The notes beneath the pieces are model-generated. The model had not been told where the DNA came from. It did not search any database and saw only the letters and a program-made list of their open reading frames with translations. This document shows positions 1,419 to 32,127 of a DNA stretch of 53,402 nt, piece after piece. Position numbers and translations under genes: made by a program. Each line of letters opens with the position of its first letter. The stretch's first letter is position 1. The DNA lies in the IMG/VR virus record IMGVR_UViG_3300035659_000019, positions 1 through 53,402 of that record. One strand, 5' to 3'. Origin of the DNA: a virus (taxonomy: Duplodnaviria; Caudoviricetes).

Positions 1419-2843
1419 TTATACCCTCGACTGCTGGTATGCGTATGCTACTGAATACGCATCTTCGCCTGACTTAGCTCGAACGGCTAACGCATAACTG
1501 ACTGCCGCATCATCGTAATCACCTGAAGGAGCCTTCAACGAGGCACCTTCAATACATTGTAACTGCAAGAACGACTTCTCGCTATGTATCACACACGTCT
1601 TATCCTTCGCCGCATCGGCCATCGTCGACCACATAATCGCTTTCGACTTCGTTGTGCTTAGCCAACCAGCGTTCCCATCAATACCTGGGAGCAAATTAAC
1701 GTCCGGATAGAGCTCACTCAGATACAGAAGTACCGCATGACCGTGGTTGTTACGCTCAATTAACGCACCTGCTCCGTTGTAGTAGCGCGAAAGCGTAACG
1801 ATATTCTCCGCCATTACTGACGGCTCCTGGCGTTCAGCTAGACTCGCTACCTCTTCACCTAGGTCGCTCATTACGGTAACCGACGAATCATCACTCGTTG
1901 GATTGCCTTCCGCAGGATCCGCCCCTATGTAGTAGCCCATATTGGATTCGGGCGGTCGAAATATTTGTAAACCCGCAACGGCGGGAGCGTCTGGGACGCT
2001 CTCCAACGGTGTCATCTCTTGGTAACAGCTAACTAACCACGGCGTCGGAAGTCTCTTATCCATCGTACGCGCCATCAACGCTTCCGCATCGGTAGCTGGA
2101 TATTGCTCATACAAGTCATCTAGTGCAGTCGTCCGCGCCAGTATGTCGCTCTTCTGGTCCGCATACCACACTTGGCCGCGGTCTGGCCGGCTCCACCACG
2201 GTAAAAACACCGAAACCCATGGACTCTTGCCGGCTTTCGCTGCCTTGTACATTGTTTTGAAAGGACTATTCGGTTCATCCTTGTTCGAACGGCTCAGTAG
2301 GATCATTCTGCCGCCACCATCAATTGTCGGCTTTACCGCAGTCATTAGCTTATCGAGGTCAGGAATCAGATCTGCCTCGTCAACCAGTGCTGTTGACGCA
2401 GTATATGAGTCTCCTGCTGTAGTTGGGAACGCATACGTCTCCGAACCGTTGCTAAAGTGCCACGCATGGTCGTTACTTACCAACACTCTTCGAGTACGCA
2501 TCCATGCTGGTAACCGTTTCTCTATTCCTTGTTGCCGCTTGAGCAAATACACTGCTTCATCGTCACGGCGTGAAAACAACAAACTCGTAGTCGACGGGTA
2601 GAATAGTTTCAGCCACAAGTCGAACGCTAGCATCAACCATGTCATACCTAACTGCCGAGCCTTCAATACTATAACCAAGCGGTTATCGACAAACGTTCGC
2701 AATACCTCCACTTGAGCTGGCCACAAGCGGAACGGAATCCACTTGCCTAGCGGTGCATCGTAGATATGTGTATAATGGTCTACCCAGTACGGACACGACT
2801 GCGAGCACGTTAGCCATTCTCTTTTCTGTTCATCTTCTCCCAT
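1419..2843 (-). CDS. terL: Terminase large subunit
   Basis: Walker A-like LKARQLGMT, Walker B LVDEAD, nuclease motifs GADPAEG and YDDAAVS; adjacent to portal. Confidence 0.93.
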   Translation of the reverse strand: MGEDEQKREWLTCSQSCPYWVDHYTHIYDAPLGKWIPFRLWPAQVEVLRTFVDNRLVIVLKARQLGMTWLMLAFDLWLKLFYPSTTSLLFSRRDDEAVYLLKRQQGIEKRLPAWMRTRRVLVSNDHAWHFSNGSETYAFPTTAGDSYTASTALVDEADLIPDLDKLMTAVKPTIDGGGRMILLSRSNKDEPNSPFKTMYKAAKAGKSPWVSVFLPWWSRPDRGQVWYADQKSDILARTTALDDLYEQYPATDAEALMARTMDKRLPTPWLVSCYQEMTPLESVPDAPAVAGLQIFRPPESNMGYYIGADPAEGNPTSDDSSVTVMSDLGEEVASLAERQEPSVMAENIVTLSRYYNGAGALIERNNHGHAVLLYLSELYPDVNLLPGIDGNAGWLSTTKSKAIMWSTMADAAKDKTCVIHSEKSFLQLQCIEGASLKAPSGDYDDAAVSYALAVRAKSGEDAYSVAYAYQQSRV

Positions 2844-3328
2844 TCCTCAGCCTCCTGGCGCGCCTTGGCAAGTTCGTCGGCGGTAAATGAGATTGTATTG
2901 GCGGACTCAACACGAGTAACCGCGGGCAGGCCGGCCCTATCTAGAATCTCCTTTGCAGCTTGTACACCTAAACGCGTACTCAGCAAATTTAACTCCAGAG
3001 TCTCTACAGCGCGTAATGAGAGTTCACGGAGTTTTCGACTAGCATGTTCTACAGAAGCCATGGCAAGCCTCGACTGCTCCGTCTCCCACGCCTTCGCGCG
3101 GTCGAACCACTGCCACTTCAACGCGACGTTTACCCATGGATACGGCGTCTTGCTCGACAATAGGAACGTGTCGACATCGGGTCGCGTGTCGCGAATGAAA
3201 TTCAAATACGCAACGCGAAGAGACCTGCCTGGTCCTTGCGCTAGGTAGTACTTGACGAAGATAGTATGCCAACGTTCGGGCTCGCCTTGAAGACGTTCCC
3301 AAACGTTAGTTTCCTGAGGTGTGTCCAT
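2810..3328 (-). CDS. Probable terminase small subunit
   Basis: Upstream of terL; YYLAQGPGRSL...W.W..RAKAW...AAKEILDRAG pattern; GAGGAG RBS before MDTPQ. Confidence 0.7.
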   Translation of the reverse strand: MDTPQETNVWERLQGEPERWHTIFVKYYLAQGPGRSLRVAYLNFIRDTRPDVDTFLLSSKTPYPWVNVALKWQWFDRAKAWETEQSRLAMASVEHASRKLRELSLRAVETLELNLLSTRLGVQAAKEILDRAGLPAVTRVESANTISFTADELAKARQEAEEWEKMNRKENG

Positions 3329-3388
3329 AACATTCTCCTCATAGTCGCGGGCAGAGCGGCCGGCCTCGAGGCCCATCTCTATGTAAAT

Positions 3389-3417: not shown

Positions 3418-3610
3418 GTGGTCAATTCTGCATCGTCTCGGACTAACTGGGGTGCGGGCCCGGATCCTACTTTTGCAAGTTGCCCCCTAGGAATTTTAGA
3501 AGAAATAAATTATAATTGTAGTACGTCAAAAGTTGAACGAGGCATGCGACGAGCCGATTTAGGCCTTGGCACACGCCCAAGTGTTTCAGCTATTCTGAAA
3601 GGAGCCGTAT

Positions 3611-4186
3611 ATGATGGACATAAATGAAGTAGCAAGGATGATAGAAGCAGGTCTTACAGTGGAAGCGATCGCTGAGGAGCTAGGGTGCTCAACGAGTTCG
3701 GTGTACAAGATAATGCGTGCTGTGCAACCTAACAGACGGAAAGGGAGGCCGTCCTCGGGGGACGTGCTTACTGACGTAGACCGCAGTGAGATCGTTGGCG
3801 AGTACAGATCAGGAGAGATCCCCGTTGGAGAGATCGTCCGTTCTTGGAAGATTACGTACGCTGTATTCTATAAGACTCTGCGAGATGGTGGCGTGTCGTT
3901 AGGACGTCCTAAGACGCCGGTGAAAGTAGCGAGAGAGGAACAGGCTGTCCAGATGTATATCGATGGAGCACCGCTCTGGGAGATCGTCGAGGAGACCGGA
4001 GTTCCACAACCAGTACTACACAAGATGCTACATATCCGTAAGGTACCGTTCCGTCATGGAAGCGCGCCAAAGTTTGTAGTGGACGGTGCGCCGATAGAAC
4101 CGGAGGACGAGCTACACGAAGGTGAGGGCGCTGAGCCTAGTCTTGGAGAAGATGGGACCTTCCAAGGAGACCCAGAGCCTCTTTAG
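3611..4186 (+). CDS. Protein with three tandem HTH-like units and an acidic tail; possible transcription regulator
   Basis: GLTVEAIAEELGCSTSSVYK, VGEIVRSWKITYAVFYK and LWEIVEETGVPQPVLHK units; GAAAGGAG RBS. Confidence 0.65.
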   Translation: MMDINEVARMIEAGLTVEAIAEELGCSTSSVYKIMRAVQPNRRKGRPSSGDVLTDVDRSEIVGEYRSGEIPVGEIVRSWKITYAVFYKTLRDGGVSLGRPKTPVKVAREEQAVQMYIDGAPLWEIVEETGVPQPVLHKMLHIRKVPFRHGSAPKFVVDGAPIEPEDELHEGEGAEPSLGEDGTFQGDPEPL

Positions 4187-4274
4187 GACCCCGGCGTTTA
4201 CCCGGCTCGATATCGTTTCCGCTCCGCGATCAAAACTGTTACAAAAGTAACGTTCAAACCAGGACATTTGACAT

Positions 4275-4303
4275 TTGACTTGGAGTTAGAATTCATGTAC
4301 AAT
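4275..4303 (+). promoter_or_regulatory. Sigma70-type early promoter
   Basis: TTGACT-17 bp-TACAAT. Confidence 0.75.
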
Positions 4304-4421
4304 AAAGCTGTAAGCAAAAAAAAAAACAACTTTCACAACAAACAAACATATATATTGTACTTTAATAACTAAATACTCTACTTCATTTTATAAATTTTCT
4401 CAAACATCTAAATTTATAAAA

Positions 4422-4594
4422 TATCTTGAAGCTAAAAGCTGTGACGACTTCTCAGCTAGTAACAACTAGCTTAGAACATCGCGAAAGCTGAGTCGAAAGA
4501 CTGCGATTCTTCAAGATTATGAGATGAGTACTAACGACGTGACTCAACACAAGTCGAACTATAATATAGGTCGTATGCAAAACGAACACGTCGT
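4422..4594 (+). ncRNA. Putative structured RNA or leader with two multibranch domains
   Basis: ATCTTGAAG/CTTCAAGAT closes AGCTAGT/ACTAGCT and AGTC-GAAA-GACT hairpins; ACGACGTG/CACGTCGT closes further small arms. Confidence 0.45.
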
Positions 4595-4662
4595 AGAGTT
4601 TAGTAACTTTCTATCTAATCATCAAATCATCAAATCGACATCTATCTATAGGAGAGAACAAA

Positions 4663-4935
4663 ATGACTACAAAACGTTATACATCAAAATCACACAACTT
4701 CTTCGATAACGACAAAAACATAACACAATATCATCATCCACGTAATCGACAACTTCCACCACACATCGTCTACAAACTAGAGCGAGAGTCAACAGATGGT
4801 GGCACAGTAATATGTGGCATATGTCACGAGAGATTCACAGTAACAGCTTGTGTCTGGTCAAGAAGAAGCTGGACTGAAGAACCACAATACTTTTGTAAGT
4901 ATTGCGTCAAGTTTCACAAGCTTACAAGAGTGTGA
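4663..4935 (+). CDS. Hypothetical zinc-finger protein
   Basis: GGAG RBS; CGIC...CKYC. Confidence 0.6.
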   Translation: MTTKRYTSKSHNFFDNDKNITQYHHPRNRQLPPHIVYKLERESTDGGTVICGICHERFTVTACVWSRRSWTEEPQYFCKYCVKFHKLTRV

Positions 4936-4944
4936 GTAATGTGA

Positions 4945-5083
4945 CACACTCAGCTCTGATAAGCTTACAATCTGAGCTGTCCGCTGAAGTCGAGTGAGAG
5001 ACTAAACGTGCTAGTCAATACTAGAGTGACGTCTGCACTTGCTTCCAGCAGCTCAGTTGTCAAGCTTGTCAGAGCTGAGTGTG
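4945..5083 (+). ncRNA. Putative structured RNA: ~35-bp imperfect stem closing a branched loop
   Basis: CACACTCAGCTCTGATAAGCTTACAATCTGAGCTG pairs with CAGCTCAGTTGTCAAGCTTGTCAGAGCTGAGTGTG. Confidence 0.55.
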
Positions 5084-5122
5084 GCCCACCTAAAACCACA
5101 CCAACACCTTAGGAGGTGTACG

Positions 5123-5581
5123 ATGCCTAGTAACATTGATCCCAAGTTAGCCTATACCATCAAGCAGGCTGCTTTAGCCTGCAGCCTTGACCCAATGTGG
5201 GTCAGACGTATGGTACAGGAGTCCAAGTTGGATGGCTGCTACCAGGAGAACGTACCTGGCACGACCATCAAACGATGGATGATTCCAGGAGCTTCTCTGA
5301 TCAAGCACGCAGCCAATGCTAAGCAGAGCAAGCGAACTGACGGAGCCACTAAGTTCACGATGTATGCTGATCGTGCGATGGCTGCTAAGTTGGAAGAGCT
5401 TGCCAAAGCAAATGGGTTGGTTGTAACCATCCAGAGAGCTAACACTCCTGAGCAGATTGCTAAGCGATATGCTCACCAGAAAGCTCAGCGAGCTCTTGCC
5501 AAAGCGAATGCTACCAAAGCTTCTGCAGCTAGCAAGCAGCGAGCGTTAGCAGCACTTCGAGGTACTGTCAGCAAGAAGTAA
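5123..5581 (+). CDS. Xis/HTH_17-like DNA-binding protein with Lys/Ala-rich tail (paralogue 1)
   Basis: YTIKQAALACSLDPMWVRRMVQESKL...WMIP; AGGAGG RBS. Confidence 0.65.
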   Translation: MPSNIDPKLAYTIKQAALACSLDPMWVRRMVQESKLDGCYQENVPGTTIKRWMIPGASLIKHAANAKQSKRTDGATKFTMYADRAMAAKLEELAKANGLVVTIQRANTPEQIAKRYAHQKAQRALAKANATKASAASKQRALAALRGTVSKK

Positions 5582-5727
5582 CCCAAAGCGCTGAAGCGCG
5601 CACGACCAAATTGAATACCCAGAGCATGCAGCCGGCACCTGCATGCTCCTGGTGAGTCGCAAAACTCCACCTCCACGCGGTGCGACTTGGACAATGCTAA
5701 CGGAGAATTGAAGGAAGGAGAACTAAA

Positions 5728-5919
5728 ATGCCAGAACTACCGTTCGACCTAAACATGATTCGATTCTTAGCTCAGCGAATACACGATCATCTAGACCAAA
5801 TAAGCAAGGTGATAGAGATTGATGATGAGCAATTCGGTGAGCTCAACCACTTTGTGAGTTGGATCGTTGACCACAATCTGGAATACCTAATCGAGAAAGG
5901 AGGCAAAGCCAATGACTGA
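5728..5919 (+). CDS. Hypothetical protein
   Basis: Strong RBS, 63 aa. Confidence 0.6.
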   Translation: MPELPFDLNMIRFLAQRIHDHLDQISKVIEIDDEQFGELNHFVSWIVDHNLEYLIEKGGKAND

Positions 5920-6085
5920 CAAATATCAATACATCAAGGCAGGCGCCTGGCGCGCACATCAGAATGGTGTGCGTGAGTCACACACAGTGCGCCGCGCCGC
6001 GGCAAGCATTGCATTCTGGATGCTTGCAGTCGGCGCAGCCAGCTGCTTCGTGGCGATCGTGGTTCTTGCGATCGTCGTCCGGTAA
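5912..6085 (+). CDS. Small membrane protein (57 aa, not in ORF track)
   Basis: AAGGAGG RBS; MTDKYQ...IAFWMLAVGAASCFVAIVVLAIVVR. Confidence 0.65.
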   Translation: MTDKYQYIKAGAWRAHQNGVRESHTVRRAAASIAFWMLAVGAASCFVAIVVLAIVVR

Positions 6086-6225
6086 CATAGAGCCCCCGGC
6101 CCGGGGCCCCCAGTGCCCCGACCCACAGGACCCCCGCCCCCCGGAGCGGGTGTCTGCAATCTGCGAATATCGTGACCGGGGACACTAGCATGCTGCGTCA
6201 CATCGCAGCGGAAGGAGAGCTTATC

Positions 6226-6735
6226 ATGTACACAGAGAGAACAACCGGCGGCGAGCCGGTGGACGTCGGACCGCTGTACGCGGAGGCGCTGCGGGCCTGG
6301 GGCCCCTCAGCCCTGCCGCCGGCGGAGATGATCCGCGTGACCATCGAGCCGCAGATGACCCGCAACTTCGAGCGGGCCTACCCCAAGGCGTTCCACCGTC
6401 ACACGGGCCAGAAGGTTAGCCGCGACTACTACGCGATCACCCTCAGCGGTCCATGGTTCTGCGCTATCCAGGACGTCTGCGGAGAGCAGGTGCTACTGGA
6501 GCAGTGGCGCGACACGGTACTACACGAGCTTGCGCACATCAGCATTTACCACACGCGCCCGGGGTCAGGAATTCACCACGGATACGAGTGGCAGCGTCTC
6601 ATGCAGAAGGTGGGGCTACCTACCTGCGCACGAGCGTTCTACCCTTGGTCATACAAGGTAGCGCTACCTGGTACGAAGGTAACCTGGGCTCAGATAGCGA
6701 GTTACAAAGAAGACGAGCACGGAGGCGACTCATGA
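6226..6735 (+). CDS. SprT-like zinc metalloprotease
   Basis: TVLHELAH...HHGYEWQRLMQKVG. Confidence 0.75.
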   Translation: MYTERTTGGEPVDVGPLYAEALRAWGPSALPPAEMIRVTIEPQMTRNFERAYPKAFHRHTGQKVSRDYYAITLSGPWFCAIQDVCGEQVLLEQWRDTVLHELAHISIYHTRPGSGIHHGYEWQRLMQKVGLPTCARAFYPWSYKVALPGTKVTWAQIASYKEDEHGGDS

Positions 6736-7102: not shown

Positions 7103-7873
7103 ATGCACCCTGAGACAAAGCACGACATGCTAGCCGCACTACTGTATTACCACGACTACGTAGCGAACGGCCGGCGTCACCTTACGACCTTGGGTCGCGA
7201 CGGGTACTACCACCCCATTGAGGACCTTGAGTGCCCGCTGTGCGAGAACGCCCGGTGGATCTCGTCGTACGGATCACATATGCGGAGCAACGAGCACATC
7301 GTTGCGAAGTTCCGCGTCTCACGACGACGGCTCCAAAAGGCCCAAGAGTACCTGACCATCCTAAGCCACGGTCAGGGTCTTACGCCAGACGTAGCATATA
7401 AGCGTCTGTCGTTCGGCGAAGGAGATCTGTCAGGGCTACTCGTATCACCACACAAGTCTGACGAGCCCTGGCAACCTGGTAAGGTGTACGAGGCGACCTG
7501 TGTCAGTTCCGACATGACGCAGGCCGCACATACGCCCCCAGGAGAGGACTGCACGTGCGGGATCTACGCATTCTGGGACCCAGTACAAGCCTTCGAATAT
7601 CCAGGAGGCGACGTAACGGTCCGCCTGAAGATTGGCGGACTAATAGAGGACTGCGAGGAAGGCTGCAGAGCCCAATACGCGGTCATTACAGGCCTAGTCT
7701 ATCTCGAGCACGCACGGGATAGCTTGGTCGTAGACACCGCGAGCATCGAGCTCTCGGCACGATACGGAGTACCGGCCATACCGGCAGTCCGTGAGAACCA
7801 GGGAGAGAAGCTCCGTACGATGTTGGAGCCGCTATTCTCCCAGTGGGATATGGAGGACAAGAGCCATGAGTAA
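7103..7873 (+). CDS. Hypothetical metal-binding protein
   Basis: CPLC...H...H finger and HTPPGEDCTCGIYA motif. Confidence 0.6.
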   Translation: MHPETKHDMLAALLYYHDYVANGRRHLTTLGRDGYYHPIEDLECPLCENARWISSYGSHMRSNEHIVAKFRVSRRRLQKAQEYLTILSHGQGLTPDVAYKRLSFGEGDLSGLLVSPHKSDEPWQPGKVYEATCVSSDMTQAAHTPPGEDCTCGIYAFWDPVQAFEYPGGDVTVRLKIGGLIEDCEEGCRAQYAVITGLVYLEHARDSLVVDTASIELSARYGVPAIPAVRENQGEKLRTMLEPLFSQWDMEDKSHE

Positions 7874-8156
7874 GTCCCTGATCAGCGACGAGCCTCGTGT
7901 ATCGTATAAAGAGGCTGCCGACATCCTGGGTGTAGATCATCATTACGTCCGGATACTGACGGCTCGCGGCGTCTTCGAGATCTTAGAGGAGCGCCGCATT
8001 AGTCCCCACGTGATCAAGGTGTTCATCAGCCTTGAGAGCGTGGAGCGTTACCAGGAAGCCCACCGTACGCGTACGCGCCATATGGTAAAGCTGACTGAAG
8101 ACGAGTGGTCGCAGTTCCGGGCCATGTTCGGCAATGACAAAATCCGAGGAGGGTAG
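7866..8156 (+). CDS. Xis/HTH_17-like DNA-binding protein (paralogue 2, short)
   Basis: VSYKEAADILGVDHHYVRIL...ISLESVERY. Confidence 0.7.
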   Translation: MSKSLISDEPRVSYKEAADILGVDHHYVRILTARGVFEILEERRISPHVIKVFISLESVERYQEAHRTRTRHMVKLTEDEWSQFRAMFGNDKIRGG

Positions 8157-10318: not shown

Positions 10319-10789
10319 GATTACGAAAGCGGCGTCCCCGGGTAAAGCGTATCAGGTTAGACTTATTCACGGTGACGATCCGTAAAAGAAAATAAAACGG
10401 GCCCAGTGGGCATACTAACGTATGCCCACACCCGGGGATAACGAACAATAATTTTCCTTTGTCATTATTGTCTAAGATCCAGAGGATGCTTATATATAAA
10501 TACTAATAGAAACGTATAAACTCACATATATTGAGAGTCTGAACGGTTCTGCTGTATAATGATTTAGAATACATAGAATATATAGAATAATACTAGATAA
10601 AATATTATTATTATTATTATATATTATTAATGGGACCCTCAGCCATTCCAACTCCCTGTTTGTCTCTTACCCACTGAGCCCGTTAACGGCAACACGTCCC
10701 GGTAACGCTCACAGTAGGTTTGGAACAAATGCCACGTTCCAAATAACAAATAATGGCGTATAATAGAATCATATAGGAAAGGAGGAACC

Positions 10790-13758: not shown

Positions 13759-14388
13759 ATGGACCAAATTGATTCGTTCACGGGCGACAACTTCTTCCTG
13801 TCGAACTTCTACCCAGCATGTATCAAAGTAGAAGGTATAGCTTTCCCGACGGTAGAGCACGCATACCAGTACGCTAAGACTCTGATCCAGAATGAGCAGA
13901 TTGCAATTCTGACCGCACCTACACCGGGAGCAGCAAAGCGACTAGGTAAGACGGTTACGCTCCGAGCAGACTGGGAGATGATCAAGGAGGAGGTTATGCG
14001 CAAATGCCTCAGCCAAAAGTTCGCTATACCCGAACTCGGTACGGCTCTCCTCGCTACGGGAACCGCGGAACTTATCGAAGGGAACTCGTGGGGAGATACG
14101 TACTGGGGCGTGTGCAATCACGCAGGCCAAAATCGACTCGGCGAACTGCTAATGCAAGAGCGCAGCAAGGCTAGGATGGACATCGACCCAGACATCCTCA
14201 AAGAGTACTACCTTCGTCGTAACGAGCTAGACTACTTCTTCGAATACCTCGACGCCAACGGCTACGACGTCGAAGCATTCATGGAGAAGAACGAGGCCCG
14301 GCTGGACAAACTCGCCAACCAGCTCGATCTGGCTATCGCAGATCTGCTGGACAACCTAATCGAAGCAGATGCGGAGGGTATCATATGA
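13759..14388 (+). CDS. NADAR (YbiA-like) family hydrolase with acidic C-terminal extension
   Basis: FLSNFYP...FPTVEHAYQYAK...AKRLG...LRADW...ELIEGNSWGDTYWG...GQNRLGELLM. Confidence 0.9.
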   Translation: MDQIDSFTGDNFFLSNFYPACIKVEGIAFPTVEHAYQYAKTLIQNEQIAILTAPTPGAAKRLGKTVTLRADWEMIKEEVMRKCLSQKFAIPELGTALLATGTAELIEGNSWGDTYWGVCNHAGQNRLGELLMQERSKARMDIDPDILKEYYLRRNELDYFFEYLDANGYDVEAFMEKNEARLDKLANQLDLAIADLLDNLIEADAEGII

Positions 14389-21575: not shown

Positions 21576-21990
21576 CCCAATAACAGCGGAGTACATCGCT
21601 GGGCTGTTCGATGGCGAGGGCTCTATATGCTGTCTCCATAATGTAAGTGGGACCCCCCGCGTACAGTTAAACGTTACGAACACAAATCGTGAGGTTCTAG
21701 TAGACCTCAAGGAGTTCTTTGGTTTTGGTACTATGGCTAATAGCTCGGCCTTTGGTACACGCCCATGTTACCAGTGGCAGCTTGCTGGAGCACCCAAGGT
21801 CATAGAGGTCCTAACTGAGTTGCTTCCGTACCTTCGGGTCAAAGAGAAGCAGGCAAAGATTGCGGTACAGCTATGCGAGCGAATCGCAAGTAGTGCTGGC
21901 CGGAGTAGGCGTCCCTTATCGGACGAAGAATACTCCATTCGCGAAGGCCTAGCGGCTGAAATTACTGCATACAACAAAGGAGGTACCTAA
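21565..21990 (+). mobile_element. Free-standing single-motif LAGLIDADG homing endonuclease gene (HEG1)
   Basis: EYIAGLFDGEGSI...LLPYLRVKEKQA. Confidence 0.9.
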
Positions 21991-25745: not shown

Positions 25746-26059
25746 TGGATGGAAGAGTAACGTTGCGGTCAGCCGTAAAGAGCCAGCTCCAGACCTTGAA
25801 ATCGGAGACGGCTTTCTATTACGGCGAGGTTGTTGAAATAAAGGGCGTGAAGTTTACCATAACGCGTATGAACAACTCTACGCTATGTGTACACCCCATC
25901 AATAAGTTCCGGCATTTCGCTGGCATTCTTTTAGTAGAGGAGAGTGAACATGTTACAACAGGTGTTGCAGATTCAGAAGGAACTGGCGCCCCCGAGAGCA
26001 GTAGTACTCCTGTCGGGCGGGATGGACAGCACGACGTGCCTGTCCCAAGCAATCCGTGA
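25745..26059 (+). CDS. Hypothetical protein
   Basis: TAATG-coupled to the primase gene; overlaps queC. Confidence 0.45.
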   Translation: MDGRVTLRSAVKSQLQTLKSETAFYYGEVVEIKGVKFTITRMNNSTLCVHPINKFRHFAGILLVEESEHVTTGVADSEGTGAPESSSTPVGRDGQHDVPVPSNP

Positions 26060-26723
26060 CGGGAACGACGAGATCTTAGCGGTTACGTGTTTCTATGGAA
26101 GCAAACACGCCGCTGCAGAGGTTGGCGCTTCACGTCAGATCGTGGAGTGGTATAACAGTCGTGGCATAGCGAAGGTCGACCAACGAATCATCGAGCTACC
26201 TAATATCTTTAGAGGGTCGGGCTCGGCACTTATGAACGAGGTCAATATGCCACAGATGTCCTACGCAGACATACACGAGTCCTTTGGTCCTAGTCCAACG
26301 GTCGTACCGTTTCGCAATGCCAACCTTATCTCGGTAGCGACAACGCTCGCTATCGGCTTCAAGGCCACATCCGTATACATCGCTGCACACGCAGATGATG
26401 CACACAACTGGGCCTATCCTGATTGCACACCAGAGTTCCTGGGTGCGATGGCTGCTGCCGTGTACATAGGTTCGTACCATGCAGTTACCCTACGGTTTCC
26501 GTTCGTCTGGATGACCAAGGCCAACATCGTTGCGTGCGCGGAGATGGCGCCCTACGCTCCTCTCGGGCTCACCTGGTCTTGTTACGAAGACGGGCTACAA
26601 CAATGTGGTACTTGCCCAACGTGTATCGAACGTATCCACGCTTTTAGGGTGAACGGTTGGAAGGATCGACGTACTTACGAAGCTCCAGTCGATTGGATGA
26701 ATCTCCCGGAGTTTCCATATTAG
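25950..26723 (+). CDS. queC: 7-cyano-7-deazaguanine synthase
   Basis: VVLLSGGMDSTT, VPFRN, YPDCTPEF, TWSCY...CGTCPTC. Confidence 0.95.
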   Translation: MLQQVLQIQKELAPPRAVVLLSGGMDSTTCLSQAIRDGNDEILAVTCFYGSKHAAAEVGASRQIVEWYNSRGIAKVDQRIIELPNIFRGSGSALMNEVNMPQMSYADIHESFGPSPTVVPFRNANLISVATTLAIGFKATSVYIAAHADDAHNWAYPDCTPEFLGAMAAAVYIGSYHAVTLRFPFVWMTKANIVACAEMAPYAPLGLTWSCYEDGLQQCGTCPTCIERIHAFRVNGWKDRRTYEAPVDWMNLPEFPY

Positions 26724-26731
26724 GAGGATGT

Positions 26732-26977
26732 ATGAACTTCTTCAAAGACTCAACTACCAAAGACCTGCAAGAGATACTGACAGGTGTGGCCGCTCACGGC
26801 ACGCGACAGTTGGTCCAGAGAGTTTGGGCTGTAATTACTCTGACGGCCTGGTTTTCTCTGATGGCCTGCTTTTGGCTTCACATGTTTGCTACGGACGTAA
26901 AGGTAGTAGGTCCTTCCATCTTCTTCGCCGTTGTATTCATTAGTTGCGTAATCATCATACAAGGAGGTCCGAGATGA
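26732..26977 (+). CDS. Two-TM membrane protein
   Basis: AGGAGG RBS; two hydrophobic segments. Confidence 0.6.
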   Translation: MNFFKDSTTKDLQEILTGVAAHGTRQLVQRVWAVITLTAWFSLMACFWLHMFATDVKVVGPSIFFAVVFISCVIIIQGGPR

Positions 26978-27399
26978 CCGTTACTATATCGCGTGAGTAC
27001 TCGTTCAGCGCAGCACACCGCCTTGAGGGGCATCCCCAGTGCGGTCGTATGCATGGCCACAACTACGTAGTCGAGGTGATCGTCGAGGCAAGCATCTTCG
27101 AGCTATCGCCGAACGGCATGATCCTAGACTATCATGACCTCGACGAGATTGTCAAGCCCATCGTTGCACTACTGGATCATCGTTACCTTGTTAGCGATGC
27201 GAATGCTCGTGCTGGCGACGTTTACTATAAGGCAGTACCTCGTGACTGCTATCTCATGGATGTCGAGCAAACTACGGCGGAGCTCATTGCGGGATGGTTC
27301 TTTGCAAAGCTTGAGGTACACTACCGGCTAAAGCATTACGGGATAGTTGTGATCATCTCAGAGACTCCAAAGAGCAAGGCCGCATATGCGGCAGACTGA
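26974..27399 (+). CDS. queD: 6-carboxy-5,6,7,8-tetrahydropterin synthase
   Basis: FSAAHRL...CGRMHGHNY...LDHRYL...TTAE...ETP. Confidence 0.93.
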   Translation: MTVTISREYSFSAAHRLEGHPQCGRMHGHNYVVEVIVEASIFELSPNGMILDYHDLDEIVKPIVALLDHRYLVSDANARAGDVYYKAVPRDCYLMDVEQTTAELIAGWFFAKLEVHYRLKHYGIVVIISETPKSKAAYAAD

Positions 27400-27438
27400 T
27401 CTACGCCTAAAGGAGCTAAATAAGACAGGAGGTGAACT

Positions 27439-27792
27439 GTGAAGCAGGTCGATCTGGCCTATGCGGCAGGGTTCTTTGACGGAGAAGGGTCTATTACGAT
27501 CTCGAACAAAGGCGGTTATGTTCGAATCGAGGTAGCCGTCTCTCAAAAACTGCCTGCAGTACTCCAGTGGTGGGAGACTCACTTTGACGGCAATACATAT
27601 CACAGCGTAGTCTCCCAGTGGAAGATTCATGGCTCTAAAGGCGTCGCACTCTTAACGTTACTTCTCCCGTATCTTATCGTTAAGAATGTCGACGCTCAAG
27701 AGGCAATTCATATATGGTCGATACGAGCTGACCGCGAGCTCACGACACAACTAATCAATGAAAGGAAGGTTCGACGTGGTAAAGTTTCTTGA
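27439..27792 (+). mobile_element. Free-standing LAGLIDADG homing endonuclease gene (HEG2, divergent)
   Basis: LAYAAGFFDGEGSI...LLPYLIVK. Confidence 0.85.
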
Positions 27793-28165
27793 TGTCAATC
27801 CCGATGAGTTTGATAATACCCGAGAAGGCAGACGTGGACGTGTTGCGTATCCTATCCTAAAAGAGTTCCTTGAGACAGGCAAGTTCATGGCCCAGCTTGA
27901 TCGAACGGGAATGCAACAGTCGTTCCAGTCTCTCTGCAGTACGCTAAATGCGTACATCCGTAACCATGTTATGCCAATCAAGATTATCACCCGACAGATG
28001 CAAATCTACCTGATGCGGCTTGACGTGGATAAAGAAGGTAAGGCCATCCCAGACTGGGTTGCTAAGAGCCTCGGAGCTCCGCTCCTTCTAGGTGAGGCTC
28101 CCGTAATCGATGCTGCGGAAGTCCAAAAGCGGATGGCAGTTGAAATCAACAAGAGTACGAAATGA
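27776..28165 (+). CDS. Hypothetical protein
   Basis: GTG start after AAGGAAGG; ATGA-coupled to the next gene. Confidence 0.55.
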   Translation: MVKFLDVNPDEFDNTREGRRGRVAYPILKEFLETGKFMAQLDRTGMQQSFQSLCSTLNAYIRNHVMPIKIITRQMQIYLMRLDVDKEGKAIPDWVAKSLGAPLLLGEAPVIDAAEVQKRMAVEINKSTK

Positions 28166-28821
28166 ACGTTCTTGTTGTATGTGCTAAGCGTTATAACGGC
28201 CACGAACTTTGGGTTACCTTGGGTGTGCTTCAATCTAGAGGGCACACCTCCGAGGTCGTTTCAACGCAAACCCTTATCTCGGACGAGGTTACTGGACAGG
28301 CTAATACCATCAAACGGACTCTCGACGACGTAGCAACCCTCGAAGGCTTCGATGCTCTCGTATTTGTTTCGGGCAATATGCAAGATACAGAGGCGCACTG
28401 GAAGCACCCAAGGACGTTAGCCTATGTGCATGAGGCCATCGAGCGTAACCTGCCTATAGCCGCAATCTGCTGCTCCGTTCCTATTGTCAAGGAGGCTGTA
28501 AAGGGGAAGCGAGTCTCCTTCTTTCCTCTCGTACGCTCTCGTGAGATTCTTAGAAACGCGGGTGCAATACTTCAAACAGTAACTATAAGTGTCGACGGGA
28601 AGCTCGTTACTGCGGAGCACCAGATGGCTACACAGGTCTGGGTGGAAGAATTCTGCAATGTGCTCGATGGTACGGAGTCGAGCCTGCATCTCGTTGACTC
28701 TGGCTACAAGCCAAAAGGGCGTGAACGTAAGGCGATCCCGGAACTCGAGCACCTTCGGCAAATCGTTCGCAAGACAGGACGGACGGATATCGATGATACC
28801 AAACCTAGTAAAGGAACGTAG
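28162..28821 (+). CDS. DJ-1/PfpI family (class I glutamine amidotransferase-like) protein
   Basis: Conserved Glu in YNGHEL, FDALVFVSG, nucleophile elbow IAAICCS, VKGKRVS, VDGKLVTA. Confidence 0.8.
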   Translation: MNVLVVCAKRYNGHELWVTLGVLQSRGHTSEVVSTQTLISDEVTGQANTIKRTLDDVATLEGFDALVFVSGNMQDTEAHWKHPRTLAYVHEAIERNLPIAAICCSVPIVKEAVKGKRVSFFPLVRSREILRNAGAILQTVTISVDGKLVTAEHQMATQVWVEEFCNVLDGTESSLHLVDSGYKPKGRERKAIPELEHLRQIVRKTGRTDIDDTKPSKGT

Positions 28822-29050
28822 CGATAAGTACGGTGAAGCCTGGCTAACTACAGGCGAGATCGCACGCGACCTAGATGCAGTCGGTCGCCTTCCTGCCTTC
28901 GCTCTGTTCCCTTGGTTAATAATCCTGAACAAGCTTATCCGGGCGCTCACGTCTCCGTACCACATCGATCACTGGAGAGACATTGCTGGTTACGCTTACA
29001 TAGTTACTGAGCACTTAGAAAAGGTGCAACATGACAAAGTACAAGGTTAA
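28793..29050 (+). CDS. DUF6378-like alpha-helical putative nucleotide pyrophosphohydrolase
   Basis: ER...YG...KLIR...HIDHWRDIAGYA. Confidence 0.65.
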   Translation: MIPNLVKERSDKYGEAWLTTGEIARDLDAVGRLPAFALFPWLIILNKLIRALTSPYHIDHWRDIAGYAYIVTEHLEKVQHDKVQG

Positions 29051-29690
29051 CGAAATATTTCATTCAATCCAGGGTGAAGGTTACTGGTCAGGACGGCCGG
29101 CAACCTTCATCCGTCTTCAAGGATGCAACCTAACCTGCAACTGGTGTGATACGAAGTACGCACTAGGAGCAGGTGGTGAATGGATGGACACGAGAGAGGT
29201 CACCCGCCAGATTCGTATCGGCAATATGGCTGTTATTACTGGCGGCGAGCCGATGCTCTGGGATCTCGAGGAGCTTTTAGCGAACCTTGCGTTCCTTGGT
29301 GTCTACACCCAAATCGAGACGAACGGCACGCTAAAGCCGCTCTATATATCGGAGCCTAATTGGCTTACTGTATCTCCTAAGCCCGTATGTCCGATAGCAT
29401 CGGATAAAGTACTCCCTGCCCAGTTAGCTTTTAGGCAGCCTTGGGAAGTAAACGAGTACTACTATACGTACGCAAACGAGTTCAAGTGGGTTGTAGACGG
29501 TGATCTTAGCTTCGACTGTGTCGAAGCCGCGTGGAGGCGATGCCGTAGAAAGCGACCGCCTGTTTTCTCCCTAATGCCAGAGGGCTGTCCGCCCAAACCC
29601 GAGTTTGTACATCTTGCTCTAGTCTGGCTCGAGAAACATCCTGCCTGGCGTTACTCGGATCGACTACAGTGGAGGATAGGTGTGAAATGA
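29031..29690 (+). CDS. queE: 7-carboxy-7-deazaguanine synthase (radical SAM)
   Basis: EIFHSIQGEG, FIRLQGCNLTCNWCDT, ITGGEP, IETNGT, VSPK. Confidence 0.95.
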   Translation: MTKYKVNEIFHSIQGEGYWSGRPATFIRLQGCNLTCNWCDTKYALGAGGEWMDTREVTRQIRIGNMAVITGGEPMLWDLEELLANLAFLGVYTQIETNGTLKPLYISEPNWLTVSPKPVCPIASDKVLPAQLAFRQPWEVNEYYYTYANEFKWVVDGDLSFDCVEAAWRRCRRKRPPVFSLMPEGCPPKPEFVHLALVWLEKHPAWRYSDRLQWRIGVK

Positions 29691-29845
29691 ACGACAGATG
29701 TCTCTACTGCGGTCGCGAGCTACCTGATGGCATGATAAAGGACGGCCTTTGTAAACGCTGTCACGAGATTTTTTATGGCAGCGGCGATGTTCCCGAGCCG
29801 CTACCAGACGACATAGAAGAAGAGGAGGAAGACGACGATGAGTGA
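29687..29845 (+). CDS. Small CxxC-CxxC protein with acidic tail (52 aa, not in ORF track)
   Basis: MNDRCLYCGRELPDGMIKDGLCKRCHEIFYGSGDVPEPLPDDIEEEEEDDDE; ATGA-coupled to queE. Confidence 0.7.
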   Translation: MNDRCLYCGRELPDGMIKDGLCKRCHEIFYGSGDVPEPLPDDIEEEEEDDDE

Positions 29846-29990
29846 ACCTAGAAAGTGCGAATGTTGTGGCGCACCGCTATTCCCTTGGCAGGCACGCCTT
29901 TGTGCCACTTGCCTCCAGAAGTTCATGAATAGCGGTGGCTGCTCTCCTATACCAGAAACAGATGAGGAGGACGACGATGACGACGAATAA
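29838..29990 (+). CDS. Small CxxC-CxxC protein with acidic tail (50 aa, not in ORF track)
   Basis: MSEPRKCECCGAPLFPWQARLCATCLQKFMNSGGCSPIPETDEEDDDDDE; GAGGAGG RBS. Confidence 0.7.
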   Translation: MSEPRKCECCGAPLFPWQARLCATCLQKFMNSGGCSPIPETDEEDDDDDE

Positions 29991-30531
29991 CGTTAGTGAG
30001 CTTACTACCATCTTAGCTACGATTTTCGGCAAGGAATGTTTCGATGATTCTGTCTCCAGTACTGCAAGCCGCGTACTTCGGTATTGGGGTGAGTTTCAGC
30101 CCAAAAGTGAGATAGACTTCGAGTTTACAGTCTTTCCAGCAACCGTCAACCAGCTCATAATCGTCAAAGACATTGAGCTGGAATCCATATGTGCACACCA
30201 CCTGCTGCCGTTTTACGGCAATGCTCACGTAGGATATATTCCTAATGAGCTAATGGTGGGGCTGAGCAAGATACCACGCCTAGTAGAGTTCTGGGCACGT
30301 CGCCCCACTACACAAGAGCAACTAACTGCGAACATAGCATCGGACTTGAAACATCGTCTCGCTGCTATGGGCGTCGCAGTAACCATTGAGGCTAGGCACA
30401 CGTGCATGTCGTGCCGCGGCGTACGTAAGCACAATGGTGTAATGATAACGAGCGAGATGCGTGGAGTATTCCTTACCGCTGAAGCAGCTCGATCGGAATT
30501 CCTAAACCTGATTGCGAGGGATCGTATATGA
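29977..30531 (+). CDS. folE: GTP cyclohydrolase I
   Basis: SICAHHLLPFYG, VGLSKIPRLV, QEQLT, HTCMSCRGVRK. Confidence 0.95.
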   Translation: MTTNNVSELTTILATIFGKECFDDSVSSTASRVLRYWGEFQPKSEIDFEFTVFPATVNQLIIVKDIELESICAHHLLPFYGNAHVGYIPNELMVGLSKIPRLVEFWARRPTTQEQLTANIASDLKHRLAAMGVAVTIEARHTCMSCRGVRKHNGVMITSEMRGVFLTAEAARSEFLNLIARDRI

Positions 30532-30782
30532 GCGTCGTAGAGCAAATTTGGCTATGTGATGCTTGGATCGATCGCCTTAGCGTCCTACGTGACGCCGCGA
30601 CACAGACTGTGAAGAACAACCCTGATCTCGATCCCACAATCCGTACTAGAGTTCTGGAATGCAGGCTCGAGGTCGAATCCGTACTCGCCTCCTTTATTCA
30701 GGAGCGCGATAAACTAAGAAAGCTGGTAGAAGATGAAATACGCCGCGATAACTCCGACGCCATACCTCCCACTCCTCAATAG
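30528..30782 (+). CDS. Hypothetical helical protein
   Basis: ATGA-coupled to folE. Confidence 0.5.
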   Translation: MSVVEQIWLCDAWIDRLSVLRDAATQTVKNNPDLDPTIRTRVLECRLEVESVLASFIQERDKLRKLVEDEIRRDNSDAIPPTPQ

Positions 30783-31473
30783 GATGTCGTACCATCTGCT
30801 CCTAGGCCAGAAGCTCGTTACTGACCTAAAGTACTTAGAGTGGGCAGAGATGCGGCACTACCAAGGAGATTTCCTTATCGTCGATAACGGAGCCGCTGAG
30901 CCCGAGCAGGAGCGTGTGCCTTTCGAAAATATCCTCAAGGTTGCGTTGAACATTTACGCAGACGAGATCGTCGTACCAGACGTCATACGTAACTCTGAGT
31001 TGACACTCGAAATGGCTCGACACTGGGGTCCAACGATTCCGCTCAACAAGCGTCTAATCATTCCTCAGGGACGTGACCTGGAAGAGTGGAAGTCGTGCTT
31101 CCTTGAGCTGAAGCATCTACTTAGCTTCGTAGCCGTGGGCATACCAAAGCATGCCGAGACCTTCAAAGGAGGTCGAGCTGCTATCCTCATGTGGCTTCAC
31201 GAAGCGGACTTCTGCCGCCGATCTAATATTCATCTCTTCGGCTGTCATACAGATCCCCTGGAAGAGATCCGCCAGGCGATAAGGATCTGTCCTGAGATCC
31301 GAGGGATCGACACTGGAGCGGCGGTTGCCTACGCTCAAGTAATGCAACCGCTCACGTGCGGCAAGCACTTTGGAGTCGAGTGGGATAAACAAGCAGATCC
31401 TCGAAGCATATCGTACAACATGTGCTCGATAGCGAACTGCATAGAGGAGGAACTGAATGCATATAACCATTGA
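30733..31473 (+). CDS. TGT/DpdA-like guanine transglycosylase (divergent)
   Basis: TGT-like motifs LIVDNGA, VVPDV, IIPQG, VAVGIP, IHLFG, GIDT inside a que/folE cluster. Confidence 0.7.
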   Translation: MKYAAITPTPYLPLLNRMSYHLLLGQKLVTDLKYLEWAEMRHYQGDFLIVDNGAAEPEQERVPFENILKVALNIYADEIVVPDVIRNSELTLEMARHWGPTIPLNKRLIIPQGRDLEEWKSCFLELKHLLSFVAVGIPKHAETFKGGRAAILMWLHEADFCRRSNIHLFGCHTDPLEEIRQAIRICPEIRGIDTGAAVAYAQVMQPLTCGKHFGVEWDKQADPRSISYNMCSIANCIEEELNAYNH

Positions 31474-31870
31474 GTACATCGCTGGGCTGTTCGATGGCGA
31501 AGGTTGTATAACTTGCAACCACACGCAAAGCGCCCCCATAATACACTTGCAAGTCTCTAATTGCAATCGTCCGATCTTAGAGGAGCTTAAGGCATTCTTT
31601 GGTCATGGTACTATCCAGACCAATGGCGGCGGAGGTGATCGACCCGTATACTGTTGGCACACGAGCGGCGCCTCTAAGGTTACGGAGGTCTTAACGAAGC
31701 TTCTTCCATACCTTCGGATCAAGCAGAAGCAGGCATCGATTGCGCTGAAACTATGCGAACGTATCATAAATCGGGTCGGGCGAGCTTGGCCTGCATTAAC
31801 CTACGAAGAGTACTCCCTCAGAGAAGGTCTTGCAGAAGAGATTACTCGTCTCAACAAAGGAGGTACGTAA
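31457..31870 (+). mobile_element. Free-standing LAGLIDADG homing endonuclease gene (HEG3, close paralogue of HEG1)
   Basis: EYIAGLFDGEGCI; 29 nt identical to HEG1 (31472-31500 = 21589-21617); same EEYS.REGLA.EIT..NKGGT end. Confidence 0.9.
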
Positions 31871-32127
31871 TGCATATCACAGTCAAGGATCAGACTACCG
31901 GCTCAGATGCTACGATGTGCGTAGAACGTAGTACGGGCACTTGCGTTATCCTTGGGGGAGATATCGACATGTTTGACAAGCTCGTAAACATGGCGAACTC
32001 TCTCAAGGCGGACTCTGTAACTATACTCGCTGCTACGCCAGCCGTAGCGGCGCTCGAGGCTCTCGGCTGGAAGGCATCTGAAACAGTAGTCGCTATGACT
32101 AAGCTTACAAGGAGGGCTAGACAATGA
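31870..32127 (+). CDS. Hypothetical protein
   Basis: AAGGAGG RBS, TAATG coupling. Confidence 0.55.
   Translation: MHITVKDQTTGSDATMCVERSTGTCVILGGDIDMFDKLVNMANSLKADSVTILAATPAVAALEALGWKASETVVAMTKLTRRARQ

What the first reader, a model, noticed from the sequence alone, without database searches (positions are those of the whole stretch)
4284..4737. Early region almost free of CC/GG dinucleotides: possible footprint of the DNA modification target
Seen: by hand count these 454 nt contain about 86 C and 55 G but zero CC and only two GG (4569, and the RBS at 4651). About 16 CC and 7 GG would be expected from composition. Depletion continues through 4920-5080, and even the RNA stems here are built without GG/CC steps. 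The region starts at the first consensus promoter next to the terminase end of the map. Established: phage DpdA enzymes insert 7-deazaguanines at short sequence motifs. Inference: this phage modifies G in GG, and the first-transcribed segment has lost these sites, especially on the template strand, so host RNA polymerase can read incoming modified DNA. An alternative is avoidance of a GG-targeting host defence in the first-injected DNA.
Basis: partly seen in the sequence, partly recalled or inferred. Interest (0 to 1): 0.75.

Follow-up and report, generated by a model that had tools for sequence, protein, structure and literature searches.

The report
Early phage cassette purged of GG/CC
The first transcription unit of this 7-deazaguanine-modifying phage has lost nearly every GG and CC on both DNA strands, and related phages show the same purge for other G-containing dinucleotides, so it probably marks where the phage's own DNA modification acts.

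Summary
Window 4284-4737 has 0 CC (16.3 expected) and 2 GG (6.7 expected). The purged zone runs 4260-5084: a sigma-70-type promoter, a 350-nt leader, an orphan 90-aa zinc-ribbon ORF and a 139-nt hairpin. It stops just before the next gene's ribosome site. In the ORF, all 9 CC/GG sit in unavoidable Pro, Gly or Trp codons. No other part of the genome shows this, and none of 63,197 control windows does. Depletion hits both strands, so the pressure acts on duplex DNA. Related phages with the same DpdA-like gene and que genes have equally sharp early zones purged of other dinucleotides: GC in G010, AG/GG/CT/CC in G023, GG/CC in G024. 25 phages without that gene have none. In phage Iggy, whose DpdA target is experimentally GA, the only locally purged dinucleotide is GA/TC, in its divergent control region. 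The GG motif is unproven. The rationale that host RNA polymerase cannot read modified DNA is not supported. CAjan and 9g show no such zone.

The parts
4260..5084 (.). Zone purged of CC and GG on both strands (825 nt, 37% G+C against 51.5% for the genome).
   Evidence: CC 6 of 33 expected, GG 10 of 25 expected. Both borders are sharp: all 8 CC of the 4187-4662 gap lie before 4261, and GG 5083 with CC 5085, 5086 and 5089 follow the zone.
4268..4303 (+). Sigma-70-type promoter: overlapping -35 candidates and a TACAAT -10.
   Evidence: TTGACT-17-TACAAT at 4275-4303, 10 of 12 matches, the best site in 3500-6500. A second TTGACA at 4268 was read.
4305..4662 (+). Untranslated leader. It has an A-run, a stretch of about 115 nt with a single G, a 13-bp A-U hairpin (4385-4422), a branched structure with GAAA loops (about 4422-4513), and the ribosome site AGGAGA holding the GG at 4651.
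   Evidence: Sequence. Fold energy -65.2 kcal/mol, z -2.8. Inverted repeat I5. The transcript start is inferred from the promoter.
4663..4935 (+). ORF90, an orphan 90-aa protein with two CxxC pairs (zinc-ribbon-like). It is coded with the minimum possible number of CC/GG.
   Evidence: All 9 CC/GG lie in 4 Pro, 3 Gly and 2 Trp codons. Synonymous recoding gives 23.7 +/- 3.5, with a minimum of 13 in 3000 trials. Only weak treble-clef Pfam hits. No homologue other than itself among 5.8 billion proteins and none in IMG/VR.
4940..5088 (+). Long, nearly perfect hairpin or inverted repeat that closes the zone. It contains no GG and only 2 CC.
   Evidence: Folding 4925-5125 gives -94.2 kcal/mol, z -8.4, with 0 of 200 shuffles as stable. 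Inverted repeat I1. There is no U-run after it.
5123..5581 (+). Next early gene (HTH_17-like DNA-binding protein). It lies outside the zone and has near-normal CC/GG.
   Evidence: Weak HTH_17 Pfam hit. CC 30/34.6 and GG 21/35.6 for the ORF 5039-5581. Homologues in G004 and G010.
3611..4186 (+). HTH_7 DNA-binding protein just upstream of the zone. It serves as the conserved synteny anchor.
   Evidence: HTH_7 E 2.4e-13. Homologues next to TerS in G004, G006, G008, G010, G011, G013 and G015.
30733..31473 (+). DpdA-like DNA-guanine transglycosylase candidate (246 aa).
   Evidence: AlphaFold model with pLDDT 97.5. Best PDB fold hits are archaeosine TGT 1iq8 (TMq 0.71) and bacterial TGTs. 25.8% identity over residues 1-144 to phiST CGPG_00065, which is DpdA3 (PMC10516641). 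11 of 50 relatives weakly match DUF6610. No PF01702 hit.
25944..30531 (+). 7-deazaguanine precursor genes: QueC 25944-26723, QueD 26944-27399, DJ-1/PfpI amidotransferase-like 28162-28821, QueE 29031-29690, FolE 29935-30531.
   Evidence: Pfam hits: QueC 3.1e-45, PTPS 2.7e-26, DJ-1_PfpI 6.6e-16, Radical_SAM 6e-09, GTP_cyclohydroI 3.4e-53.

Best explanation
Window 4260-5084 is the phage's first (immediate-early) expression cassette: promoter, long leader, one small zinc-ribbon protein and a closing hairpin. Selection on the duplex DNA has removed the dinucleotide GG (CC on the other strand) from it wherever the protein sequence allows. The most likely agent is the phage's own 7-deazaguanine system. 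On this reading GG is either the dinucleotide at which its DpdA-like transglycosylase exchanges G, or the step at which a modified G does harm. The cassette therefore stays an unmodified island in an otherwise modified genome. Shown here: the purge, its limits, its strand symmetry, its effect on codon choice, its recurrence with other G-containing dinucleotides in related phages, and the match of purge and mapped motif in Iggy. Inferred: that GG is the target in this phage, that the cassette is transcribed first, and the benefit. The benefit may be that the first gene can be read and expressed from incoming DNA even when host proteins are hindered by modified G. It may also be that host enzymes attacking modified G (type IV nucleases, Dag-type glycosylases) are at work while the cassette is expressed.
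For: (1) The purge is extreme and local. (2) CC and GG are both purged. In G023 the forbidden set is AG, GG, CT and CC (7/84, 1/71, 3/68, 0/59). In Iggy GA is 5/45 and TC 11/41. Each set is closed under reverse complement, which points to duplex DNA. (3) The pressure overrides coding. ORF90 has only forced CC/GG. The G010 ORF has 0 GC and no Ala (8.1 expected). The two G023 ORFs have 1 and 0 forbidden dinucleotides against 54.2 +/- 6.1 and 41.6 +/- 5.6, and 1 and 0 Pro/Gly/Trp against 20.6 and 15.4 expected. (4) The architecture and position are shared. The G010 zone 640-1111 (GC 0 of 21.5) and the G024 zone 60-560 (CC 3/18, GG 7/21) also hold a small ORF and a hairpin and end before the next ribosome site. 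G010, G008 and G023 zones lie downstream of the HTH_7 gene. (5) Association with the cluster. Among 25 genomes with the DpdA-like gene, long non-repeat zones occur in G000, G010 and G023, a partial one in G024, and repeat-array zones in G004 and G008. Among 25 genomes without the gene there are only tandem repeats (G041) and one 81-nt run. (6) In Iggy, DpdA targets GA with 97% of sites modified (PMC10484667, passages read). GA/TC is the only dinucleotide with a local extreme: 16 of 85.9 expected at 59901-60600 against a genome median of 0.79. This is the lowest of all 700-nt windows and lies in the divergent non-coding region between gp89 and gp90/gp01. (7) Host glycosylases that destroy 7-deazaguanine DNA exist (bioRxiv 10.1101/2025.10.29.685425, passages read).
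Against: No modification data exist for this uncultured phage. Its DpdA-like protein shows no similarity to the DpdA1 enzymes whose motifs are known. Its nearest named relatives are DpdA3 enzymes, reported to replace all G (PMC10516641). If that holds here, a GG-free zone would still be modified at its 309 G:C pairs. CAjan (GA and GGC) and 9g have no purged zone; their lowest GA/TC windows are 0.48 and 0.61, so the effect is not general. 5 of 9 same-synteny relatives (G006, G011, G013, G014, G015) have none. The G004 zone and most of the G008 zone are arrays of one repeated motif. The forbidden dinucleotide does not follow DpdA similarity: G010's protein is 39% identical and purges GC, while G024's is 28% identical and purges GG/CC. 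The comparison with controls is confounded with phage lineage, and 4 of 25 against 0 of 25 is not significant on its own. The Iggy match has about a 1 in 10 chance of being coincidence.
Confidence: 0.45

Rival explanations
1. The cassette avoids a host defence that reads the dinucleotide itself on duplex DNA. The obvious candidate is a CRISPR protospacer-adjacent motif: CC for type I-F, I-A and I-B, NGG (and weaker NAG) for Cas9. The first-expressed, possibly anti-defence, cassette could then be neither targeted nor sampled for spacers.
For: The purge is strand-symmetric and involves a 2-nt element. The G023 set AG+GG equals NRG, but that NAG is a weak Cas9 motif is recalled, not taken from a call. 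The layout of strong promoter, small orphan protein, then HTH gene resembles anti-CRISPR operons (the resemblance is recalled). CC-motif depletion is published for P. aeruginosa phages (PMC12174588, passages read).
Against: Published motif depletion is slight and genome-wide (8.27% against 8.74%; PMC12174588). The rest of this genome keeps about 6,100 CC/GG and shows no site avoidance, so targeting elsewhere is not prevented. GC (G010) is not a known motif of this kind (recalled). In Iggy the purged GA/TC matches its DpdA motif. Phages without the DpdA-like gene lack such zones.
Confidence: 0.2
2. The constraint acts on the early RNA. A host or phage factor senses or cuts GG and CC in the transcript, as ZAP senses CpG in the cytomegalovirus IE1 RNA. 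Alternatively the leader is kept free of Shine-Dalgarno-like (GG) and anti-Shine-Dalgarno-like (CC) strings so that the single ribosome site stays unique and unmasked.
For: The zone's limits match a transcription unit, from the promoter to the base of the hairpin. Outside codons the only GGs in the transcript are the ribosome site at 4651 and 4569. A precedent for dinucleotide suppression limited to an immediate-early transcript exists (PMC7498042, abstract read).
Against: Forbidden sets are closed under reverse complement in G000, G023, G024 and Iggy, which an RNA reader does not predict. CC is absent even from the G-poor, unpaired 5' leader. A single GG or CC does not make a ribosome-binding or masking site, yet every free one is gone. 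No RNA run was available to test transcription.
Confidence: 0.12
3. The zone is a mutational footprint. A context-specific cytosine deaminase (CC context here) repeatedly hits the most exposed early-transcribed DNA on both strands. It erodes the motif until only sites held by purifying selection remain.
For: The zone is A+T-enriched (37% against 51.5% G+C). Only protein-forced CC/GG and the ribosome site survive. The limits fit a transcription unit. The parallels of APOBEC3G and AID are recalled, not taken from a call.
Against: There is no excess of the expected products. CT, TC, AG and GA are raised no more than CA, AC, TG and GT (1.08-1.33 against 1.23-1.28), and TT and AA are not raised. 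The G023 zone is 46% G+C with CpG at 153 of 65 expected, and it forbids C followed by a pyrimidine, an unusual deaminase context. The G010 zone is barely A+T-enriched (43% against 46%). No homologue exists from which to infer the direction of change.
Confidence: 0.1
4. The zone is a recently acquired foreign cassette whose odd composition comes from its donor and has no function in this phage.
For: Low G+C, sharp borders and an orphan ORF.
Against: No genome with anything like zero CC/GG turned up in 2.4 Mb of fetched phage genomes. Independent phages have the same architecture at the same map position with different forbidden dinucleotides. The sequence is nearly invariant in four metagenomes.
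Confidence: 0.05

Closest known systems
Dinucleotide-specific 7-deazaguanine insertion by phage DpdA (Iggy: GA; CAjan: GA and GGC)
   Same: This phage also carries FolE, QueD, QueE, QueC and a TGT-fold enzyme. The recognition unit is a G-containing dinucleotide, read on either strand. In Iggy the mapped motif is the locally purged one (PMC10484667 and PMC7544227, passages read).
   Different: The enzyme here is not a DpdA1. It resembles DpdA3 and DUF6610. Its motif is unknown. Neither paper's searched passages mention a motif-poor region: the words 'promoter' and 'depleted' or 'underrepresented' occurred 0 times. CAjan has no such region.
CpG suppression confined to the cytomegalovirus immediate-early IE1 transcript, which evades ZAP
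   Same: A dinucleotide is removed from the first-expressed gene only and is normal in later genes. The logic is that the first gene must work while the host sensor is still active (PMC7498042, abstract).
   Different: That sensor reads RNA in an animal cell. Here the purge is strand-symmetric, the virus is a phage, and the suspected cause is its own DNA modification.
Recognition-site-free leading DNA of T7 and T5 with early anti-restriction genes (recalled, not from a call)
   Same: An early-acting stretch carrying the first promoter lacks defence targets and encodes a small early protein.
   Different: Those cases concern specific 4-7-bp sites. Physical first entry of this zone is not shown, because no genome ends were found.
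PAM depletion in phages of CRISPR-bearing hosts
   Same: The short motif CC/GG is avoided on both strands (PMC12174588, PMC4246573 in listing).
   Different: The known effect is weak and genome-wide. This one is near-total and confined to 825 nt.

Membership tests
DpdA-type DNA-guanine transglycosylase (ORF 30733-31473) | TGT-like TIM-barrel fold | tested here: met
   Model pLDDT 97.5, pTM 0.93. The top Foldseek hit is archaeosine TGT 1iq8 (TMq 0.71), followed by many bacterial TGT chains. Generic TIM barrels also score.
DpdA-type DNA-guanine transglycosylase (ORF 30733-31473) | Sequence match to Pfam TGT (PF01702) | tested here: not met
   No PF01702 match anywhere in the genome at E<=1. No Pfam, NCBIfam or PDB sequence hit for the ORF.
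DpdA-type DNA-guanine transglycosylase (ORF 30733-31473) | Similarity to a named DpdA subfamily | tested here: inconclusive
   DpdA3: 25.8% identity over residues 1-144 to phiST CGPG_00065 (E 3e-6) and 27.6% to Campylobacter phage homologues. DpdA4/DUF6610: 0 hits for this protein, weak hits for 11 of 50 relatives (best E 2.4e-4). DpdA1 (CAjan): probability 0.7%.
DpdA-type DNA-guanine transglycosylase (ORF 30733-31473) | Adjacent preQ0-pathway genes | tested here: met
   FolE, QueE, QueD and QueC lie within 5 kb upstream. The same order is found in G004-G028.
DpdA-type DNA-guanine transglycosylase (ORF 30733-31473) | 7-deazaguanine present in virion DNA at defined sites | not testable with these tools
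   The phage is an uncultured virus from sediment metagenomes, known only from assembled contigs.
Modification-motif-free early or control region (seen here in Iggy) | The locally purged dinucleotide equals the mapped modification motif | not testable with these tools
   Met for Iggy (GA, PMC10484667). Not met for CAjan. For this phage the motif is unknown.
Restriction-site or PAM avoidance | Genome-wide under-representation of the avoided motif | tested here: not met
   Outside the zone CC o/e is 0.88 and GG 0.85. GGCC 0.84, CCGG 0.95, and no under-represented 6-mer palindrome.
Immediate-early dinucleotide suppression (HCMV IE1 type) | Suppression limited to the first transcript and absent from later genes | tested here: inconclusive
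   The sequence pattern fits. Timing of expression is inferred from the promoter only, and no RNA run was listed.
Immediate-early dinucleotide suppression (HCMV IE1 type) | The sensor reads RNA, so the bias is strand-specific | tested here: not met
   Both members of each complementary pair are purged in G000, G023, G024 and Iggy.
Known RNA families for the leader or hairpin | Match to an Rfam model | tested here: not met
   No match in 4260-5122 even at E<=10.

The most novel reading that the evidence does not exclude
Some phages with hypermodified guanine keep their immediate-early cassette, or main control region, free of the dinucleotide at which their own transglycosylase acts. This creates an unmodified island that works on incoming DNA and cannot be attacked by modification-dependent immunity. 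If so, the local purge reveals the enzyme's specificity from sequence alone. The predictions are GG for this phage, GC for G010 and G after a purine for G023, with GA recovered for Iggy. It would also mean that DpdA3/4-like enzymes are sequence-specific and diverge fast in specificity.
Probability: 0.35. Interest if true: 0.85.

Novelty: new variant of a known kind. Interest (0 to 1): 0.8.

Why it matters
If the purge marks the modification target, the target motifs of uncultured DpdA-type enzymes could be predicted from genome sequence. They could then be tested by expressing a few genes in E. coli. It would also show that a protective DNA modification has a cost large enough to reshape the codons and amino-acid content of the first phage genes. 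The G023 proteins have almost no Pro, Gly or Trp, and the G010 protein has no Ala. It would give phages a counterpart of the cytomegalovirus IE1/ZAP case. It points to the small orphan early proteins, such as ORF90, as candidate counter-defence or takeover factors. Three literature searches and passages of the CAjan, Iggy and DpdA3/4 papers turned up no description of such zones. Supplementary files could not be seen and might hold per-site modification maps that bear on Iggy's control region.

Tried and rejected
- **DNA similarity:** the region 3600-6200 has no match in the phage collection.
- **Relatives of the early proteins:** ORF90 and the HTH_17 protein have no relatives in IMG/VR. ORF90 matches only itself among 5.8 billion proteins. 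The protein atlas gave only unnamed small proteins.
- **Rfam:** nothing in the zone.
- **Earlier findings:** none on record.
- **Sequencing runs:** no RNA holder was listed. Four sediment DNA runs hold the zone almost unchanged (one A-run indel at 4316, G>T at 4934, one other letter). This was too little variation to test selection. No molecule ends or joints were seen, so first entry of this DNA could not be tested.
- **Relatives, first pass:** scanning for CC/GG only suggested no conservation. This was revised once all dinucleotides were scanned.
- **L051, G015, G025 and G041 runs:** these are simple or tandem repeats.
- **Trinucleotide-free runs:** nothing beyond chance in early regions.
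- **Amidotransferase-like gene:** zones occur in 2 of 3 genomes that have it (G000 and G010, not G022).
- **NADAR gene and DarT1:** DarT1 has no GG-specific motif. ScARP-type enzymes have none either.
- **Genome-wide palindrome avoidance:** none found.
- **phiST (DpdA3, all G replaced):** no early zone. One coding window has CC/GG 2 of 20.7 at 32851.
- **9g and CAjan:** no zone.
- **Promoter scan:** it did not flag the by-eye promoters of the G010 and G024 zones.

Full report
**1. The observation**

Window 4284-4737 holds 86 C and 55 G. It has no CC (16.3 expected) and two GG (6.7 expected), at 4569 and in the ribosome site at 4651.

The exact probability of no CC is 2.1e-9. None of 20,000 shuffles had fewer than 5 CC. 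The CC-free run 4260-4738 (479 nt) is the longest run free of any dinucleotide in the whole 53,402-nt record. The two longest GG-free runs lie beside it.

The purged zone is 4260-5084. Within it CC is 6 of 33 expected and GG is 10 of 25 expected. All other dinucleotides are present, including GA at 57 of 53.

No other gene or gap of the + strand block is affected. The other large A+T-rich gap, 10319-10789, has CC 27/18 and GG 24/16. In 125 fetched loci (1.64 Mb), 0 of 63,197 windows came close.

**2. Anatomy of the zone**

The window is a whole IMG/VR virus record, linear and estimated 95% complete.

- The late genes (TerS 2810-3376, TerL, portal and the structural genes) lie on the - strand.
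- The + strand block starts with an HTH_7 protein (3611-4186).
- Next comes the best sigma-70-like promoter of the region (4275-4303).
- A 350-nt leader follows. It has an A-run, a stretch of about 115 nt with one G, an A-U hairpin and a branched fold with GAAA loops.
- ORF90 (4663-4935) follows.
- A 139-nt hairpin closes the unit. Its fold energy is -94 kcal/mol with z -8.4.

The zone starts at the promoter. It ends at the base of the hairpin, a few bases before the CC/GG-rich ribosome site of the next gene, which is HTH_17 at 5123-5581 with CC 30/34.6.

Within ORF90, all 9 CC/GG are in Pro, Gly or Trp codons. Recoding the same protein with the genome's codon usage gives 23.7 +/- 3.5, never below 13 in 3000 trials. 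The pressure therefore acts on nucleotides, and the ORF is real.

AGCT is enriched (15 against 4.2 expected).

**3. The phage**

It encodes QueC, QueD, a DJ-1/PfpI amidotransferase-like protein, QueE and FolE.

Next to FolE lies a 246-aa protein with no Pfam hit. It has these properties:
- Its model (pLDDT 97.5) is a TIM barrel whose best solved match is archaeosine tRNA-guanine transglycosylase.
- It has 1,537 relatives.
- It is weakly similar to phiST CGPG_00065 and to Campylobacter phage proteins. Cui et al. name these DpdA3 (PMC10516641, passages read).
- 11 of 50 relatives weakly hit DUF6610, which is the DpdA4 family.
- It is unrelated in sequence to CAjan's DpdA1.

The premise that this phage has a DpdA is therefore reasonable. 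The enzyme belongs to a branch whose sequence preference is unknown.

TerL relatives sit in Chloroflexota genome bins. The phage occurs in sediment metagenomes.

**4. Relatives**

A first pass looking only at CC/GG found nothing in 80 TerL loci. I then fetched several sets of records:
- 23 near-complete records that carry the DpdA-like gene, of which 17 also have QueC.
- G004.
- 25 records without the gene.

Eight of these share this phage's gene order, with portal, TerS, HTH_7, primase and PolA at 29-59% identity. Scanning all ten strand-symmetric dinucleotides changed the picture.

- **G010.** Positions 640-1111 have no GC (21.5 expected). The zone starts right after a terminator-like hairpin. 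It holds a 99-aa ORF with no alanine and a hairpin, and it ends just before the next ribosome site. It lies between the HTH_7 and HTH_17 homologues.
- **G023.** About 1.2 kb (45307-46528) has AG 7/84, CT 3/68, CC 0/59 and GG 1/71. Its two ORFs have almost no Pro, Gly or Trp. The zone lies downstream of an HTH_7-like gene and starts at a promoter-like site.
- **G024.** Positions 60-560 have CC 3/18 and GG 7/21. Behind a by-eye promoter there is an A-run like the one here, then small Cys-rich ORFs and a hairpin.
- **G008.** There is a zinc-ribbon ORF in the position of ORF90, in very A+T-rich DNA with CC/GG 7/19.
- **Repeat arrays.** The GC-free run of G008 and the CG-free run of G004 are mostly arrays of one short repeated motif. 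I do not count them as the same thing.
- **No zone.** G006, G011, G013, G014 and G015 have none.
- **Controls.** The 25 genomes without the gene gave only tandem repeats in G041 and one 81-nt run.

**5. Phages with known motifs**

Published targets are GA and GGC for CAjan and strictly GA for Iggy, where 97% of sites are modified (PMC7544227 and PMC10484667, passages read).

In Iggy, GA/TC is the only dinucleotide with a local extreme. There are 16 of 85.9 expected at 59901-60600, against a genome median of 0.79. This is the lowest of all 700-nt windows. It lies in the non-coding divergent region between gp89 and gp90/gp01.

CAjan and 9g show nothing comparable. phiST shows nothing in an early region.

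**6. Interpretation**

In this phage, G023, G024 and Iggy the forbidden set is closed under reverse complement. That argues for a reader of duplex DNA rather than of RNA.

The element is a G-containing dinucleotide, the size of the known DpdA motifs. It differs between related phages. It is strong enough to reshape proteins. It is limited to the first transcription unit or control region of phages that modify G. In the one case with a mapped motif, the two coincide.

I therefore rank "footprint of the phage's own G modification" first, at about 0.45. Two sub-readings remain open: the enzyme's target dinucleotide, or the step at which a modified G is harmful.

A defence-related benefit is at least as likely, because glycosylases that destroy 7-deazaguanine DNA exist (bioRxiv 10.1101/2025.10.29.685425, passages read). 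It is inference all the same.

The rivals, with my confidence in each, are:
- a host defence reading the dinucleotide directly, PAM-like (0.2);
- an RNA-level sensor or ribosome-site insulation (0.12);
- a deaminase footprint (0.1);
- foreign origin (0.05).

The remainder is unassigned.

**7. Limits**

- There are no modification, transcription or genome-end data for this phage.
- The comparison between genomes with and without the gene is confounded with lineage, and the numbers are small.
- Promoters of the other zones are by-eye or weak.
- Supplementary files of the cited papers could not be read.

Noticed in passing
window 13759-14388 (+): A NADAR-domain protein (E 1.2e-23). Orphan phage NADARs are reported to reverse DarT1 guanine ADP-ribosylation (PMC11825919). 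It is a likely counter-defence gene against another G-directed attack.
   Followed up: partly
window 5652-5735 (+): Three HDV-family ribozyme models hit the same spot weakly: RF00094 at 26.7 bits, RF02682 at 22.3 bits and RF01787 at 17.6 bits. All are below the gathering score. The spot is the gap between the HTH_17 gene and the next ORF.
   Followed up: no
window 3468-3480, 4239-4249 (reverse strand), 4888-4900: Three copies of a 13-nt partly palindromic motif (TACTTTTGYAAGT). One lies in the divergent TerS/HTH_7 gap, one just upstream of the early promoter and one at the end of ORF90. They look like operator sites for one of the HTH proteins.
   Followed up: no
window 21475-21990, 27439-27792, 31457-31870 (+): Three LAGLIDADG-like ORFs are interspersed in the replication and que cluster, and PolA (32124-34472) carries an N-terminal UDG-superfamily domain.
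   Followed up: no
G023 45307-46528 (L259 5307-6528): The most extreme zone seen: 1.2 kb with essentially no AG, CT, CC or GG (about 280 expected) and CpG at 153 of 65 expected. It encodes two ORFs of 132 and 99 aa that almost lack Pro, Gly and Trp.
   Followed up: partly
Iggy NC_070970.1 59901-60600 (L344 9901-10600): The divergent non-coding control region of phage Iggy has GA/TC at 0.19 of expectation, and GA is the published DpdA motif. No mention was found in the passages of the Iggy paper that I searched.
   Followed up: partly
G004 2550-3133 and G008 about 7700-8120: Arrays of a short repeated motif (CATGAGA / TCTCATG type) lie between the HTH_7 gene and the early promoter in two relatives. 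They are probably binding-site arrays. The window has no such array.
   Followed up: no
window 4358-4369: A boxA-like string (9 of 12 matches to the rrn boxA as I recall it) lies about 50 nt into the leader and is followed by the A-U hairpin. It could be a nut-like antitermination site. The consensus is recalled, not tested.
   Followed up: no
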